A stretch of 64,000 nt of DNA from Saccostrea cucullata (taxonomy: Eukaryota). The DNA lies in the NCBI RefSeq assembly GCF_032062105.1, contig NW_026925150.1, positions 64,655-128,654 of the forward strand, given 5' to 3'. The translations under genes were made by a program, and so were the position numbers. The notes beneath the pieces were generated by a model. That model saw nothing but the letters and a program-made list of their open reading frames with translations. It was not told where the DNA came from and did no database searches. Within the stretch, counting starts at the first letter, position 1, and every line of letters begins with the position of its first letter. Of the stretch, positions 425-59,950 are shown piece by piece.

Positions 425-835
425 CATTAATAGCTTCCTAGGTATTTAAACTTACCCAAAGTAGCTATTTTTACCTACTTTTTTATTATCTGCATTTTGT
501 GGCCAAACGCAAGAACGATGCAACGTGGCGAATACCATACCATGTTGATACAGTCAAAATGATACAAAAAATTTTGGTTAAAAAATGATTACTTCCTGAA
601 TCGGCAATTTTGCATGTTTCTATGCTAAATTGATAATATACGAAGTAATCAATTTTTGGCCATATTTTTGTCATATCCATCACCAGTGTGACTGTATCAA
701 TAAATTTGGAGTTCACCGTGTTGCGCCGTTCTTGCGTTTGGCCACAAAATGTAATTAAAGCAGAAATTAGGTAAAATAGCTACTTTTGGTAAGTTTAAAT
801 ACCTATGTAAATATTAATTAATAGCTAGGTAGGTA
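425..835. mobile_element. MITE-like insertion (~410 bp) with ~100-bp terminal inverted repeats, nested inside the LINE endonuclease region
   Basis: Left 'attaatagcttcctaggtatttaaacttacccaaagtagctatttttacc...ttttgtggccaaacgcaagaacg' against right 'cgttcttgcgtttggccacaaaa...ggtaaaatagctacttttggtaagtttaaatacctat...attaat'. The two are reverse complements. Confidence 0.6.
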
Positions 836-2995: not shown

Positions 2996-5900
2996 AGAGT
3001 TGAATATTAACTCTGGAAGACTGAAAGTTTTACCCTGAGTTTGGATAAAGGAGGTTGCTTATCAGTACCTGGTTCCCCAATGTTTTCAGTTGCAGAAGGA
3101 TTAGCATTCACAGATGAACTTTGATTAGACTGAAAAGAATTTTCAGAGACGGAGACGGAGGTGATTGTGCTTCCCCGTTCATTTTTCCAAGACCAGTTTC
3201 TACTGATTGATCACAAAGTTCATTTAGATCTGGTAATGATGAAGTTCTAAACCTTCTACGTGAGGTTTTAGATGAGCTATGGAAGGGACTATAGTGTGTT
3301 AGTTTCGTACCCACCGATTTTGACTTGGATGACATGAGTAGAACTCACAAATGTTTATGCATGCGACAGTACGTCAAAGTTCACACACCAAAAAACACAC
3401 AAAATAGACAAATGTTCTGCTTCAAAGTTTGTTTTCAATTAGAGTTGCATCTTGCTTAAGTCAGAGTATACACTAGCCTACTAATCAACACTCAGAAATG
3501 CAATACTACCTCTTTTACCCATCTACCTACCCTTTAAAGTCGTTTCTACAAGTGATAAACTCGCTTAATCAAAATCATATGTTAGAATATGCTGTGGTTA
3601 CTAAAGTATGAATTATATGAAATTGTGCATTTTTATTAGCTCATTTGCATCATTAGAAATGCCTGTATTTAGCCTTAACTCACTTGCGTAGTACTTACAC
3701 ATTGAAATTTGTAATAAATATTTACCGGACATTTTCTTGAAAAGAAATATCAGATCTTTATTACCGCTTAGAATTATAGAGCGAGTATGATTTTAAGCAG
3801 AATGAAAAAATAACAACCATGACAAACAATAATCATTGTTCTCCCGATAAGAATATATTAATATACCCCCTACATGTGTACTTCAATTCCATTCTTTATT
3901 CACTCAAAACCAGATAACTGGTACAAGAGGTACATATATACATATAATATAAACAAAAATTACATTCAAGGATCAAGAAATAGATAAATAAATATAAAGG
4001 GAAAAAAGAGTAAAAACTAGAGGTACTGTGAGCAATGAGCTCAATAAATGATACCCCCGCCTCCCATAATGTCAATGTTTCATAGAATATAATGGCAATC
4101 TCCATGTTTTGGTATGGGAAACCTAATATACCGAATATCGAATAAAAAAGTAAAATAGGAGGTGCTCAATGGCAATATGTAATAAAGATTCTGTGAAAGT
4201 TTCATTCAATTTCACTCAGTAGTATAAGAGGAGTTGCGGATAAGAGATAAAGCGTAACAGACGGACGGACGGACGGAAATACCGATTATTATATACCCTC
4301 CCACTTTTCAAGCAGGGGTATAAAACATGCAGTCAGTTATATACATATTGTATAAAACACGTGGAGGATTCAAGGACAGACAGTTTTAAAAATGGTCTTG
4401 ATTTTTTTTACTGACCATACAAGTTACGGATGTCAGCATGTGAATATTTTCTAGGACTTTATGCTTTAAATAGATATTCAAACTGAATAATATTGGGGAA
4501 AAAAATAAAATACAGGTTATTCATCATAGAAGTAATTGATTGCTTAATGTATTTTGAATTAGAAAATAAGCACATATTTTGATTTTGTAAGTAAACAGCA
4601 ATCATGAAACAAATTAAAATTGAGAATTCTGGTTTGTTTGCTAAAAAATTGCGAAATAATTGAACAAAAAATACATGCTATAGTGAATTTACCACCTATA
4701 ATTTTGTTAGTTTAAAAGATAATAATATATATCTATATTTTTTTGAAAATGGAAAGCTTATATATGGCTCAAAACTCTGTTACGGACGTCAGACAGTCTC
4801 CTCTTGCAAATAATTACTCTGAAGATATCAAAAGTAGTCTTGAAAATTATGGTTTACAGTTTCCTCAACTACGCAAACTTCCTTTTCTAGGTGAAAAAAC
4901 CAGATATTTTACCTACAGGAAGGGGTTATTACCAAAAGATCAGATAAATGCACACTTTCATATTTTCACTCTTTTCTCTCCATTTTTTCTGTCTTTAATT
5001 TTGCATTTGTCAATAACATTTTGTAAATAATGTATATGAATATTTATTGCACTGGTTTAATCTACATTTTTTCTAAATTAAACATTTTTTTTTCATTTAT
5101 TTAAAAGAAGTCAATTAATATTAGAAAGATTGGTGATAGGTGTCAGGTATTGTAAAACCTGACATCCGTAACCAACATTATTTAGAATAAATTTCCTACA
5201 AGAGAGTTTTAAACAATTAATTTAATCAATACACAATAAAATTTGGACATGTGCATATCAATACAATATTTCAAGGGGTCAGATATATTTATTCATATGA
5301 TATTTTTTTCAAATATGTCTGATACACAAATATCCGATCACATATTTTGCAAATCAATAAGTTTGGTGCTCGAATATATCAATGGAATGAAACATCTAAA
5401 GCATTTTACGCATTAATAATTATCACTTTTTAGATATAAAAACATAAGCATGAATAATAACATTTAGAAAATGCCTTTAAAGCGCTTAAAACTCTATAGG
5501 TATGGAATCTGACTTTCCACCCTGATATACGTAACGCTACAGAAAATTTTTCAAAATAATGTCAGATGATTCATTGACTTAGGTGAAATGGTTTTAGTCT
5601 ACAGCAAATATACTTCTTGCAAATGAGTATAAACTAACTCAAACAATTCCACACATATCCATTCGTATTTATTCACATTTTAACACACCTTTGTCATATT
5701 TTTCTCAAACATACGTTTTGCTTCATACATTTAATTATGATACTATCTATATTTATTCTTTTAAATACAATCACTTCCTTTCAAATCAATCACGCGTTAC
5801 GGAAGTCAGGCCTGTTTCAGCGACAATATATAAATCGGGATAAATAAAGGAATAATGTCTTAAATCAGATTATGTCTTACTTACAAAACAGGCTTTGTGA

Positions 5901-49013: not shown

Positions 49014-49872
49014 CTGGAAATGGAAAATAAAAAAAAGGGAATTTATTCATGTAAACAGATGCCGTTTTCAAAATATGATTTTTGTAGAAATTTTAAGCCT
49101 TAACAGCAACATCTTTTGGGTTCCCTTTTCCATGTTTTAAAATCAGTTGTGCTTAAGGGTGGTTTTATGCCCATGTTCCAAGGTCAACCTACATGGTAAC
49201 TGATATCACTCACCTCTCCTCTTCCAACTTAATAGTAACAAACCTCACACTTAGGGATCATTTCCATCTGAGGCTAAATGTACAATTTTTAAACAAGACA
49301 CACTTGTCAATCTCACCCTCTTTTGTCAATGATGATCCTCTCATACTATTTCATTTGGTAAGCAGCGGGTTAGCTGGCGGGGTGCATTGTGTAGATCACT
49401 ATATTTCTGACACCTTATTTTTCGCTCTCATTGATCTGATTAGCAAGACAAAATTTTCACAAATTGTGGTGATTGCTTTATATAATCTAAAGGAATGCTT
49501 TTATACGCGAGAATTAAATTTTCCGAGCACACTGTCTCGCATAATTGCATGAAAATAAAGTTTTTGCGAATAAAAAGTGATTTACAGTATTTTGGCTTCT
49601 GAATCGCTATAATAGTCAGTACTCTTATTAGTGTTCATACTGTATTCAAAGAGCTGAAGTAATGTCTGCTAAAATAAATAATGTCAAAATCATTGGCATA
49701 CATTTGAGCAGACAAAAGGCCAAATTTTACACCCGCCAAGAAAACCCTAAAAGGTAACTTTTGTCAATCACCTAGTTAGCCTGTGCATGGATATGACATG
49801 TAGCAATCTCTCAAAGTTTACCGTTACCATCTGCGGTTTAGACTTCTGGAGCCAGTTTTAAATGCTACTCAC

Positions 49873-50468: not shown

Positions 50469-51053
50469 CTAAAATGGATATAGGCATACAGTGTATTCCA
50501 ACAAAAATGGGAATACAATGTTTTCCAATTGCTGGATATACATTGCCGTATTTACACTGTGTGAATGTAATTGAAAATATCATTGTCAACATATACAATC
50601 ATGCAAATCATTTTACATTTATCTCAATTGCAGTTTGATTTTCTTAATGCAGGGTCTTTAAAAGAGAAATTCTGTCTACCAAAGAAAAGTAGCAATTTTA
50701 AGGGGTTAATTAATGTCATTCATAAAATTAGTGATTTAGATACATAACACTTCACTGTGAAGTAGCATAAATAAAAACAAAAGATGAAACAATACACCTG
50801 TAGACTTTTATTCATGTGCGAAAAATATTCATGAGTTTTGTGACTTATTTTCAGTTGGGATATACATTGCCGTATCACTGTGTGAACCATTTATTTTGCT
50901 TTGCTTTTGTAGAAAATGTTTCTTTATTTGCGAAAATTAATCATTGCCTATTAATTTCAAACTGATGAATCGCTAATAATAGTTGGTTTACAGTATCTAA
51001 ATAATGATTTATAAATAAATTTCCAGACATATTTTATCAAATTTGACACCTAC

Positions 51054-55115: not shown

Positions 55116-55181
55116 CTTTCTTACCTGGGTGGAGGAAGAAGCTACAGGGCCCCACCCTCAGTTCCCGTTTATAACTCTTAC
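55116..55181 (-). repeat. Tandem duplicate of the last ~45 nt of MVP exon 9 plus its GTAAGA donor (an intronic pseudo-exon end). A further degenerate copy lies at ~54790-54830, inside a ~320-bp local tandem duplication.
   Basis: On the minus strand '...CGGGAACTGAGGGTGGGGCCCTGTAGCTTCTTCCTCCACCCAGgtaaga' occurs twice, at 55182-55236 and 55120-55176. The 54655-54812 segment matches 54975-55130 apart from an internal deletion. Confidence 0.85.
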
Positions 55182-55323
55182 CTGGGTGGAGGAAGAAGCT
55201 ACAGGGCCCCACCCTCAGTTCCCGTTTTCCCAACTGTGGCTTCCCTTTCTTGTCTACCACATCTTTAATGACACAGTACTGTCCCTTCCACAAAACCTTG
55301 ATGGTCTCCGCTGATGTCACTTC
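55182..55323 (-). CDS. MVP: MVP exon 9. Its 3' end plus donor are tandemly duplicated immediately downstream in the intron (55116..55181).
   Basis: 'EVTSAETIKVLWKGQYCVIKDVVDKKGKPQLGKRELRVGPCSFFLHP' matches human '[45 protein letters not shown]'. Confidence 0.85.
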
Positions 55324-55665: not shown

Positions 55666-55732
55666 CACACCAATTTCTGGATAATAGTGATCAGTCTCAG
55701 CTCCCGTCAACAGCCACTGCTCTCCAGCCATT
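55666..55732 (-). CDS. MVP: MVP exon 8
   Basis: 'MAGEQWLLTGAETDHYYPEIGV' matches human '[24 protein letters not shown]'. Confidence 0.85.
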
Positions 55733-56237
55733 CTAATAAATTTATAATAAGTCTAGTTAGTAACTCAATTAATTAATTCAATCTTTACTGCTGTCCAGCT
55801 TTAAATTTGTTCAAACAAAAGAAAAACCAGCACCTTTCGAAACTTTCTTTTACAGCGCATCATGTTTATTCATCATTTTTTTATGACAAACTTTACTTCT
55901 GAATAAATTCTGCACTCAATATAAACAGAGTCCTCAACAGAAAAAATTACTAGTGATGAATGGATGTTAAAGGGACAAATCCCAAATAAATGTTATATCA
56001 AATAAATGTTGTAAGTTCTACTATTGGAAAAAGGTATAAATATAATGAACAGATCTAGTTCATCTAAAAGAATCCATAAACAATATAAACAATTATATGA
56101 GGAGGGCGAAAACAAACATTTCTGGAAATTCCAGAGGTGGGATCAGGTGCCTTGGAGGAGTCAGCTTCCCCCTTTTCACCGGACCCACTTGCCTTCTATA
56201 AAAATTTCCTTAAATCGTGACTGTCACTATCAAAGTA

Positions 56238-56453
56238 CATGAATACTGTAAACCAACTTTTATTTGCGACGACTTTATTTCACGATTTACCAGGGGTGAC
56301 TAAGCGACGATTATAATTTTTGCGATCAAGCCAAATTTGGAACTGTTATTAATGGACACAGAGACTTTAAAGAATGGTTCATGGCGAGAAATATTCGCGA
56401 TGAGTGAACTTTGCGAAAATATCTTGCACAAGAATAAAAGTTAGTTTACAGTA
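56238..56453. mobile_element. Tc1/mariner-type MITE (TIR 'CTGTAAACCAAC', TA target-site duplication), copy A. It sits directly against the MVP exon 7 donor.
   Basis: 'ta ctgtaaaccaacttttatttgcgacg...aaaagttagtttacag ta'. Copy B at 58019..58236 has the same TIRs and TA flanks. Confidence 0.7.
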
Positions 56454-56456
56454 TAC

Positions 56457-56551
56457 CTTTGGATTCCCTGACTGTCCACCATGGTTTGTAAGGCCTGTAG
56501 GAAAATCCCGTTGTTTGGAGTCAGAGTGATACATTGTAGAACGGAAACTAT
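56457..56551 (-). CDS. MVP: MVP exon 7. Its donor lies inside or adjacent to the terminus of a TA-flanked MITE.
   Basis: The frame was chosen by phase consistency with exons 6 and 8. 'IVSVLQCITLTPNNGIFLQALQTMVDSQGIQ' matches human '[30 protein letters not shown]'. Confidence 0.75.
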
Positions 56552-57419: not shown

Positions 57420-57489
57420 CTCTTCGTAAACATCAGGGAGGTACGCTCCTGGCTTGTTGATCATCCATTCCTCTCCAGTGACTCGTTTC
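57420..57489 (-). CDS. MVP: MVP exon 6
   Basis: 'KRVTGEEWMINKPGAYLPDVYEE' matches human '[23 protein letters not shown]'. Donor GAG|GTCAGA. Confidence 0.8.
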
Positions 57490-58018
57490 CTTTCCAAATA
57501 AAGTACACAAAATATACATACTTACTATTTAAACTGGAAGATAAAAGCTAGGAAGGACATGTATTTCTACATTTTATCTGCAAGATTTATAATAGTCTTT
57601 CATTTATTCAAGTGCTTGCACTTAAAAATATGATAGTTTTTCAATAATTCAATTTCATTAATTTAAGATTAAATGATTGCATAAAATAAATATGATTCAT
57701 TCTCCATATCCACTAGACTAAGTTAAAAAAAAGAAATTTATTTGCTGTCCATTTTATTGTTTATTTTTCCAATATCTTCCCCACCCCCATTCTTATACTC
57801 CCAACTTTCTAAATGGTGTAATACCGGCAAAACCCCTAGGTTATGAACATGATGCACTTTCAAATGAAGATTGAAGTGATTTTAATAACACAGAAGAATA
57901 AACAAAATATACAAATTAATGCAAACACAAAAAGAAACTGTATAGAAAAAAGCAATTTTTACTAAACTGCATGCGCTGTATTTTCTAAAACATTTTAGCA
58001 TAGCTGACTTATATTGCA

Positions 58019-58236
58019 TACTGTAAACCAACTTTATTTCGCGATTTACTGGGAGTAAAGTTGTTCGCAACGATTAATTTTTGCGATCAAGCCTTTTTTG
58101 GATCTATTTTTAATAGAAAAAAGACTTTAAGGACCTGTTCACGGCGAGAAATATTCGCGATGACAAGGCTCTCGCTAACCTTGCGAAAATTTCTCACACG
58201 CTAATAAAAGTTGGTTTACAGTATATTACTTTAAAA
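58019..58236. mobile_element. Same MITE family, copy B (MVP intron 5)
   Basis: 'ta ctgtaaaccaactttatttcgcgatttactggg...taataaaagttggtttacag ta'. Confidence 0.7.
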
Positions 58237-58273
58237 TGCTAATTTTAAAATAACAGCTAGACAAGACACCTAC

Positions 58274-58700: not shown

Positions 58701-58928
58701 TGCCTCTGGCTTGGGTCGATAGGTCAAAGGTCCCTCCAGCTGCCATTTATCTCCAGCCTGGTGTTTTCCGTGGGCGTCTTCAAAGTCAATGTTAGCGACC
58801 AATCGGATTGCATGATTGGCCTGAATGACAGGCAGAGGTTTGATAGCAATGCTGTAGTCAGGTCTGTTCCTCAGGAAGTCAGGAGCATGGAGAAGAGTTT
58901 CCCCGGGGTACAAGGGGAAAGGAGAATC
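58701..58928 (-). CDS. MVP: MVP exon 4
   Basis: 'DSPFPLYPGETLLHAPDFL...NIDFEDAHGKHQAGDKWQLEGPLTYRPKPEA' matches human 'DPFPLYPGEVLEKDITPLQ...[32 protein letters not shown]'. Confidence 0.9.
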
Positions 58929-59394
58929 CTATAAATAGAAACAATAGTCCTAAATATAGAAAAAAATTCAAGATCAACTTCTGTTTTCATTTTCTAACTT
59001 CCGAGAGTGAAATTAAAGTTTAAATTAAATGTTGCATAAATATCAGTGTTTTAATTTGATGCCTGGGAATTTCATTTTTTCTAGTATAAATCTATGAACC
59101 AAGAAGATGGGAAATTTCAGAAGGGTTAATTTAAATTGCCGTTACACCATTTACAAGCAGAGTGGTTTGTATTCTATCCTGGAAACTTATTCAAGTCTGC
59201 ACATTTTGCCAGCAAACATAGCTAAAGAGCTAATATCTCTGACCTTTATACATGACTGCATAAACATGATAAAGTCATGCTTAACTGTGTAAGGTTAAAA
59301 ATAAAACTAGAACTGTCCAAACAGGACAAAATACCCTCCGCTGGGTTTTTCTGAGGTACGTTTTTCCATAAAGATTATATTTAAGATATGTATC

Positions 59395-59950
59395 AAACAC
59401 AAATTATGAAATTTTTTTAACAGTGACCTTGAACTTCTCCAAATGACCTTGGGTCAAGGTCATGACACACTCTTGGGTCATGGGCAATCTTTGTGTGAAA
59501 AGAGAACCTACCAAGTTTATCCATAAGAAAAATATGGACCGGACACAAATTATGAATTTTTTCTTCAAGTGACCTTGAACTTCCCCAAATGACCTGGGGT
59601 CAATGTCAAGACACACCCTTGGGTCATGGGCAATCTTTGTGTGAAATGAGAACCTACCAAGTTTATCCATAAGAATGATATGGACCGGACACGAATTATG
59701 AAATTTTTCTTCCAGTGACCTTGAACTTCCCCAAATGACCTTAGGTCTAGGTCATGACACACCCTTGGGTCATGGGCAATCTTTGTGTGAAATGAGAACC
59801 TACCAAGTTTATCCATAAGAAAGATATGGACCGGACAGGAATTATGAATTTTTTCTTCCAGTGACCTTGAACTTCCCCAAATGACCTTGGGTCAAGGTCA
59901 TGACACACCCTTGGGTCATGGGCAATCTTAGTGTGGAGTGCATAACGTCC
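59395..59950. repeat. Intronic satellite, ~160-bp unit, about 3.5 copies (MVP intron 3)
   Basis: 'caaattatgaaatttttt..cagtgaccttgaacttccccaaatgaccttgggtcaaggtcatgacacacccttgggtcatgggcaatctttgtgtgaaatgagaacctaccaagtttatccataagaa.gatatggaccggacac' is repeated. Confidence 0.9.

What the first reader, a model, noticed from the sequence alone, without database searches (positions are those of the whole stretch)
56228..56460. TA-flanked MITE inserted within 5 nt of the MVP exon 7 donor
Exon 7 ends ...CCAAAG and the intron begins GTATA, followed directly by the MITE terminus CTGTAAACTAAC. The MITE's TA target duplication and first bases therefore supply positions +2 to +6 of the 5' splice site, which reads GTATAC (weak). 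A second copy of the same family (58019..58236) sits in intron 5. The insertion must have been compatible with splicing, or it was compensated. It is a candidate for reduced or altered exon 7 definition.
Basis: seen in the sequence. Interest (0 to 1): 0.55.

Follow-up and report, generated by a model that had tools for sequence, protein, structure and literature searches.

The report
Ordinary intronic MITE beside a weak splice donor
A 206-bp non-coding transposon (MITE) sits five bases inside an intron of a mollusc-like major vault protein gene, but the weak splice signal beside it almost certainly predates the insertion, so this is an ordinary, probably harmless intronic insertion.

Summary
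A 206-bp element (56246..56451) with 19–22-nt terminal inverted repeats and TA on both sides lies in a minus-strand major vault protein (MVP) gene. Its terminus starts at intron position +6 of the exon ending at 56457. A 74%-identical copy lies two introns upstream, and two decayed copies lie further downstream.

The exon/intron junction is well supported. A 12-exon spliced model is open and aligns without gaps across this junction to solved MVP structures (E 5e-109). A related species' contig has the same exon end.

AAG|GTATAC is the weakest of 15 homology-placed donors in this gene. However, target-site-duplication logic leaves +1..+5 (GTATA) unchanged, so only +6 (T→C) and bases beyond are new. 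The related species has an 86-nt intron with no detectable MITE, and its donor GAG|GTATTT is just as weak. The weakness therefore looks ancestral.

Skipping the 95-nt exon, or using the cryptic GT at +8, would shift the frame, and the gene is otherwise intact. No RNA evidence was available.

Verdict: a Stowaway-like TA-targeting MITE, tolerated in an intron. Low interest.

The parts
56457..56551 (-). MVP coding exon 7 (95 nt, ends in phase 2). It encodes IVSVLQCITLTPNNGIFLQALQTMVDSQGIQ(R).
   Evidence: Sequence. The spliced model aligns gap-free to solved MVP across this exon. The orthologous 95-nt exon is in L001 at 508..602.
56451..56459 (-). Exon 7 donor 9-mer AAG|GTATAC (-3..+6). Donor G is at 56456.
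   Evidence: It is the only GT that keeps the frame into exon 8. It is the lowest-scoring of 15 MVP donors.
56452..56453 (.). Donor-proximal TA (target-site duplication), at intron positions +4/+5.
   Evidence: The right-hand TA is present in 5 of 5 aligned family members.
56246..56451 (.). MITE copy A, 206 bp. Termini are CTGTAAACCAACTTTTATT / AATAAAAGTTAGTTTACAG.
   Evidence: There is no Rfam or tRNA match.
56244..56245 (.). Donor-distal TA (target-site duplication).
56448..56449 (-). Cryptic GT inside the terminal repeat (ACT|GTAAAC) at intron +8/+9. Its use adds 7 nt and shifts the frame.
   Evidence: Sequence. Translation gives stops within 15 codons. It scores below the authentic donor on both PWMs.
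55733..56456 (-). Intron 7, 724 nt. The TACTAAC branch-point-like motif and the TTATTAG acceptor are at its 3' end.
   Evidence: The orthologous intron in L001 is 86 nt.
55666..55732 (-). MVP coding exon 8 (67 nt), (R)MAGEQWLLTGAETDHYYPEIGV.
57420..57489 (-). MVP coding exon 6 (70 nt), donor GAG|GTCAGA.
58021..58221 (.). MITE copy B (201 bp) in the intron between coding exons 5 and 6. TA lies at 58019-20 and 58222-23.
50789..50993 (.). Decayed copy C of the same family. The right terminus is intact and the left is degenerate.
49382..49587 (.). Decayed copy D of the same family.

Best explanation
A non-autonomous cut-and-paste DNA transposon inserted into the TA dinucleotide at positions +4/+5 of an intron that already existed. 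It is a Stowaway-like MITE that targets and duplicates TA, and was presumably mobilised by a Tc1/mariner-type transposase. That intron already had a weak GTAT-type donor.

The target TA is duplicated on both sides, so the donor keeps G-T-A-T-A. Only +6 (T to C) and the bases beyond are replaced by the element's terminus. Splicing continues at the same junction (56457|56456) and the insertion is neutral or nearly so. It is one of at least four copies of this family scattered through the introns of this MVP gene.

Shown here: the element's anatomy, the family, the gene identity, the junction position by frame and homology, and the absence of the element from one related species together with an equally weak donor there.

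Inferred: the transposase superfamily, the exact pre-insertion sequence, and unchanged splicing efficiency.
For: - Element: inverted repeats and TA flanks. The family has four window copies and shared termini. An unrelated-interior element with the same 22-nt termini occurs in a metagenome contig.
- Gene identity: MVP.
- Junction: the 12-exon model is open and gap-free against solved MVP over residues 104-205, which span exons 6-9.
- Ortholog: L001 has the 95-nt exon ending ...AAGAG|GTATTT and an 86-nt intron with no similarity to the MITE beyond chance.
- Donor scores, gene's own PWM: current -0.49, reconstructed empty site -0.39, ortholog -1.87 bits.
- Donor scores, generic PWM recalled from memory: 0.96, 2.42 and 1.43 bits.
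- Constraint: exon skipping or the +8 cryptic donor gives frameshifts with early stops, yet the rest of the gene is intact. Correct use of this donor is therefore required.
Against: - No transcript evidence could be obtained, so junction use and efficiency are inferred.
- The only related species reachable is distant (about 80% identity in exons). Its intron flanks do not align significantly to the window's flanks (320/5000 and 227/1000 shuffles did as well). The empty site therefore rests on the intron's size and lack of similarity, not on a base-for-base comparison.
- An AT-duplication parse (element ACTG...CAGT) also fits copies A and B. It would give GTATTC as the old donor. L022's left flank (TG) and known transposon biology favour TA.
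- The donor really is the gene's weakest.
- The element adds a predicted 22-bp stem covering +3..+24. Predicted opening energy is 7.4 against 5.1 kcal/mol.
Confidence: 0.75

Rival explanations
1. The insertion measurably weakened exon 7 definition, through loss of +6 T, a competing GT at +8 or a hairpin over +3..+24. Exon 7 is then partly skipped or mis-spliced, which lowers MVP output through frameshifted, decay-prone transcripts, or the effect was compensated elsewhere.
For: - It is the weakest of 15 donors in the gene.
- The +6 T to C change costs about 1.5 bits on a generic PWM recalled from memory.
- The terminal repeats form a 22-bp stem that includes +3..+6.
- Opening energy is 2.3 kcal/mol higher than in the reconstructed empty allele.
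- A GTAAAC cryptic donor lies at +8.
Against: - The ortholog without the element has an equally weak donor.
- On the gene's own PWM the change is only 0.1 bit.
- The reconstructed empty allele is also predicted to be largely paired at the site.
- With only 100 nt of intron transcribed, the site opens at 3.6 kcal/mol. U1 could therefore bind before the stem can form.
- The cryptic donor scores lower than the authentic one.
Confidence: 0.15
2. The element is old and was present in the common ancestor. The related species lost it by deletion, so its 86-nt intron is a remnant rather than an empty site.
For: - Copies of the family are only 74% alike, so the family is not young.
- The ortholog's intron start TGTAAATGTACTTTT matches the terminus TGTAAACTAACTTTT at 12 of 15 positions.
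Against: - That resemblance is no better than chance (442/5000 and 846/1000 shuffles).
- No trace of the interior or the other terminus is found.
- Copy A's own repeats are still 21/22 complementary.
Confidence: 0.08
3. The intron itself was created by the element (an introner-like origin), with the splice site co-opted from the TA duplication.
For: - The element's ends resemble splice sites (CT|GTAAAC ... TTTACAG|).
- Introners that carry one splice site and co-opt the other from the target duplication are documented (bioRxiv 10.1101/2022.06.06.494994).
Against: - The element is 206 of 724 nt, and the acceptor lies 513 nt beyond it.
- The same intron position and phase exist in a species with no element.
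- Splicing out GT...AG of the element would leave 4 extra bases.
Confidence: 0.02

Closest known systems
Stowaway-like MITEs (TA-duplicating non-autonomous elements mobilised by Tc1/mariner transposases)
   Same: Small size (206 bp) and no coding capacity. Perfect terminal inverted repeats of about 20 nt. TA on both sides. AT-rich and hairpin-forming. Many dispersed copies, frequently in introns.
   Different: No autonomous partner or transposase was identified here. The terminus CTGTAAACC... was not matched to any named family. The host looks like a mollusc rather than a plant.
pearl / DTC84 MITE-like elements of bivalves (Gaffney et al. 2003; PMC3879986)
   Same: Short non-autonomous repeats that are abundant in bivalve genomes.
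   Different: Those have a putative AA duplication, subterminal repeats of 10-20 bp, a core of tandem repeats and a tetranucleotide microsatellite. This element has TA, strictly terminal repeats and no internal tandem array.
Introners (transposons that create introns; bioRxiv 10.1101/2022.06.06.494994)
   Same: A DNA transposon with inverted repeats and a target duplication lying at a splice site, with splice-site-like termini.
   Different: The intron predates the element and extends 513 nt beyond it. The donor GT is host sequence.

Membership tests
MITE, Stowaway-like (Tc1/mariner-mobilised) | Terminal inverted repeats | tested here: met
   22-nt arms, 95% complementary. The same termini occur in copies B, C and D and in L022.
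MITE, Stowaway-like (Tc1/mariner-mobilised) | Short (<600 bp) and non-coding | tested here: met
   206 bp and 201 bp. Only chance ORFs of 47 aa or less lie wholly inside, and they are not conserved between copies.
MITE, Stowaway-like (Tc1/mariner-mobilised) | TA target-site duplication | tested here: met
   TA lies on both sides of copies A and B. The right-hand TA is present in 5 of 5 members, and the left-hand TA has decayed in old copies. An AT parse is not strictly excluded for A and B but fails in L022.
MITE, Stowaway-like (Tc1/mariner-mobilised) | Multiple dispersed copies | tested here: met
   Four copies in 9 kb of the window: 6 terminus matches against 0.10 expected.
MITE, Stowaway-like (Tc1/mariner-mobilised) | Autonomous Tc1/mariner element with the same termini | not testable with these tools
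   No host genome is available. Scans of viral and metagenome contigs returned only chance hits, apart from one non-autonomous element.
MITE, Stowaway-like (Tc1/mariner-mobilised) | Empty site in a relative (proof of insertion) | tested here: inconclusive
   The ortholog's intron is 86 nt with no similarity to the element. However, the flanks are too diverged to align.
Introner | The element constitutes the intron and provides or co-opts both splice sites | tested here: not met
   The element is 206 of 724 nt. The acceptor is host sequence 513 nt away. The intron is present without the element in L001.
pearl / DTC84 family | AA duplication, core tandem repeats and a microsatellite module | tested here: not met
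   Flanks are TA, and there is no internal tandem repeat or microsatellite. Family features are taken from PMC3879986.
U12-type (minor) intron | Donor /GTATCCTT and branch site TCCTTAAC | tested here: not met
   The donor is GTATACTG (GTATATTC when reconstructed, GTATTTGT in the ortholog). The branch-like motif is TACTAAC, which is U2-type. The consensus is from established knowledge.
Major vault protein gene | Vault repeat domains, collinear with solved MVP | tested here: met
   Pfam Vault 1.2e-53, Vault_3 2.1e-23, Vault_4 and Vault_2. PDB MVP chains score E 5e-109 over residues 96-501.

The most novel reading that the evidence does not exclude
The element's terminal repeats fold in the pre-mRNA into a 22-bp stem that buries positions +3..+24 of an already marginal donor. 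Exon 7 inclusion, and hence MVP dosage, would then become sensitive to transcription speed, temperature or RNA helicase/ADAR activity in carriers of the insertion. That would make it a naturally occurring structural splice modulator, possibly polymorphic in the population.
Probability: 0.07. Interest if true: 0.4.

Novelty: new member of a known kind. Interest (0 to 1): 0.13.

Why it matters
It matters little. MITEs are very common in introns of AT-rich invertebrate genomes, and this gene alone carries at least four.

The useful point is methodological. An insertion that sits right at a splice site need not have changed it. The target-site duplication restores the bases next to the junction, and here a relative without the element has the same weak GTAT donor.

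If the insertion did affect splicing, the consequence would be a frameshift in MVP. That is testable by RNA-seq in carriers and non-carriers, but nothing here suggests it.

Tried and rejected
- Same-species or congeneric DNA. Exact look-ups of two window ORFs flanking the site and a homology search with the 115-aa antisense ORF over exon 7/intron 6 found nothing. No presence/absence polymorphism or close empty site could be examined.
- Flank homology with the one related contig. An apparent match (ATGTACTTT just after the element) looked like a clean empty site. On shuffling it was no better than chance (320/5000), and no better than the ortholog's resemblance to the element's own terminus (442/5000). 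I dropped that claim.
- Exon 8 next to the element. I first looked for it immediately downstream of the MITE (56120-56200). No frame there fits MVP. The real exon 8 is at 55732..55666.
- Collection scans with the terminus. The viral-contig scan gave 8 single chance hits. The metagenome scan gave 41 stretches, of which only L022 is a true paired-terminus element.
- Identifying the related samples. Literature searches for SRR14864945 and PRJEB16362 found nothing.
- MaxEntScan. Its tables are not available offline, so two position-weight matrices were used instead. One was recalled from memory and is approximate.
- Other identities for the region. Rfam and tRNA scans were negative. A U12-type intron, the pearl family and an introner origin were considered and rejected (see the membership tests).

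Full report
**What is there**

Between 56246 and 56451 lies a 206-bp AT-rich element. Its ends are CTGTAAACCAACTTTTATT and, at the other end, AATAAAAGTTAGTTTACAG. The repeat finder reports 22-nt arms (56243-56264 and 56433-56454) that are 95% complementary and 168 nt apart. TA flanks the element on both sides, at 56244-45 and 56452-53.

The 19-nt terminus, allowing 3 mismatches, occurs six times in the 64-kb window against 0.10 expected. None of 100 shuffles reached six.

A second full copy lies at 58021..58221. It is also TA-flanked and is 74% identical over about 190 nt. Two decayed copies lie at about 50789..50993 and about 49382..49587.

A metagenome contig (L022, 3549..3744) carries an element with the same 22-nt termini but an unrelated interior. 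In a five-way alignment, similarity stops at CTG.../...CAG plus TA. The right-hand TA is present in 5 of 5 members, and the left-hand TA has decayed in the older copies.

There is no Rfam or tRNA match. This is a MITE of the TA-duplicating, Stowaway-like kind. The assignment to Tc1/mariner mobilisation is an inference from the TA duplication, because no transposase was found.

**The gene and the junction**

The host gene is on the minus strand. A query built from exon-like ORFs found proteins labelled major vault protein that carry Pfam Vault domains. tblastn with those proteins mapped about 20 exons.

I placed splice junctions by requiring GT..AG, an open frame and the residue spacing seen in the homologues. 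From these I assembled 12 consecutive exons. The 424-aa product has four Vault Pfam families (Vault 1.2e-53). It aligns to solved MVP structures at E 5e-109, with no gap anywhere between query residues 104 and 205, which span exons 6, 7, 8 and 9.

The exon in question is 56551..56457 (95 nt). It ends ...CAA AG in phase 2. The next exon is 55732..55666 and begins A ATG GCT GGA GAG CAG TGG. Intron 7 is therefore 56456..55733, or 724 nt.

Read on the transcribed strand, the junction is AAG|GTATA|CTGTAAAC.

Counting from the Met-containing exon, this is the seventh coding exon and copy B is in intron 5. The first coding exon itself was not located.

**Did the element make the donor?**

Among 15 donors whose positions are fixed by homology, AAG|GTATAC scores lowest. 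This holds on a leave-one-out matrix built from the gene's own donors (-0.49 bits; the others range from 2.2 to 7.1). It also holds on a generic matrix recalled from memory (0.96 bits; the others range from 2.0 to 7.1). So "weak" is right.

But a TA-duplicating insertion into the TA at +4/+5 regenerates that TA next to the exon. Removing the element and one TA gives AAG|GTATAT. Only +6 differs. That costs 0.1 bit on the local matrix and about 1.5 bits on the generic one.

An alternative parse (element ACTG...CAGT with an AT duplication) also fits copies A and B. It would give GTATTC as the old donor. L022's left flank and known transposon biology favour TA. Under either parse, +1..+4 is host sequence and +5 was never G.

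**A relative without the element**

One protein hit (P0018) led to three short Logan contigs from three sequencing runs. L001 carries the orthologues of exons 6 to 9 at about 80% nucleotide identity.

- Its exon 7 is also 95 nt and ends ...GGA GTG AAG AG|GTATTTGTAAATG, at the same codon position and phase.
- Its intron 7 is only 86 nt.
- That intron shows no similarity to the MITE beyond chance: 125 to 846 of 1000 shuffles did as well.
- Its donor, GAG|GTATTT, is as weak as the window's on both matrices.

The GTAT core with a non-G +5 is thus shared by a lineage that lacks the element.

One caution applies. I first thought the sequence just after the element (TTCATGTACTTTGATAG) was recognisably homologous to the start of L001's intron, which would have given a clean empty site. 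On shuffling, that match is not significant (320/5000). It is no better than the ortholog's resemblance to the element's own terminus (442/5000). The introns are simply too diverged. The absence of the element in the relative therefore rests on intron size and lack of similarity, not on aligned flanks. A loss in that lineage cannot be formally excluded.

**Consequences if the donor failed**

Skipping the 95-nt exon shifts the frame and gives stops within about 15 codons. Using the GT that the element brings at +8 (ACT|GTAAAC) has the same result. That cryptic site scores below the authentic one. The rest of the gene is open and conserved, so correct use of this donor is evidently maintained.

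**RNA structure**

In the pre-mRNA the two terminal repeats are predicted to pair into a 22-bp stem covering +3..+24 (z -2.9). The computed cost of opening -3..+6 is as follows:

| Transcript modelled | Opening energy (kcal/mol) |
|---|---|
| With the element | 7.4 |
| Reconstructed empty allele | 5.1 |
| With the element, only the first 100 nt of intron made | 3.6 |

The difference is modest and depends on the model. U1 can bind before the distal arm is transcribed. I keep this only as the low-probability novel reading.

**Comparison with known kinds**

- The element matches the definition of a Stowaway-like MITE on every feature testable here.
- It is not a pearl/DTC84-type bivalve element. 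Those have a putative AA duplication, core tandem repeats and a microsatellite (PMC3879986).
- It is not an introner. Introners carry one splice site and co-opt the other from the target duplication. Here the intron predates the element and extends 513 nt beyond it.
- The donor does not fit the U12 consensus, and the branch-like motif TACTAAC is U2-type.

**What could not be done**

No transcript data were reachable, and no DNA from the same or a closely related species. MaxEntScan tables were not available. The host species was not identified. The best partial matches include Solemya velum and Bulinus truncatus, which suggests a mollusc.

**Verdict**

This is an ordinary intronic MITE insertion of a known kind, and interest is low.

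Noticed in passing
window 55119..55227 (minus-strand MVP exon 9 end): An exact 57-bp tandem duplication (1.9 copies, 100% match) repeats the last 46 nt of exon 9, its donor CAG|GTAAGA and a few intron bases. This gives two identical donors, at 55181 and 55124. Use of the distal donor would add 19 residues in frame (GKSYKRELRVGPCSFFLHP) with no stop. The related contig L001 has a single copy. It could be a very recent duplication, an alternative-donor source or an assembly artefact. It is arguably more interesting than the MITE.
   Followed up: partly
window 59383..59935: A 146-bp tandem repeat, 3.8 copies, 92% matches. It lies in the MVP intron between the small exon near 60090-60040 and the exon at 58928. 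It generates long spurious ORFs on the minus strand.
   Followed up: no
window 55733..56243 versus L001 603..688: Intron 7 is 724 nt here but 86 nt in the related species. The MITE explains only 208 nt of the difference. The remaining 511 nt has no other copy in the window and includes a G+C-rich stretch at about 56120-56200 of unknown origin.
   Followed up: partly
window 56246..56451 and all family members: The family's termini look like splice and processing signals in either orientation. CT|GTAAAC lies at the 5' end. TTTACAG| (acceptor-like) and AATAAA (poly(A) hexamer) lie in the 3' arm. Every intronic copy therefore brings a cryptic donor, a cryptic acceptor and a poly(A) hexamer.
   Followed up: partly
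L022 3549..3744 and 5576..5719; window 35712..35859: Metagenome contig OCZB010007860.1 carries an element with the same 22-nt termini but a different interior. It also carries a second repeat that is 86% identical to window 35712..35859. The contig therefore probably comes from a related animal genome present in a metagenome.
   Followed up: no
window 58005..58240 (copy B): On the transcribed strand, copy B folds much more stably than copy A (-69.7 kcal/mol, z -7.7, against -54.2 kcal/mol, z -2.9). It includes an internal near-palindrome around GGCGAGAAATATTCGCGA that is conserved in both copies.
   Followed up: no
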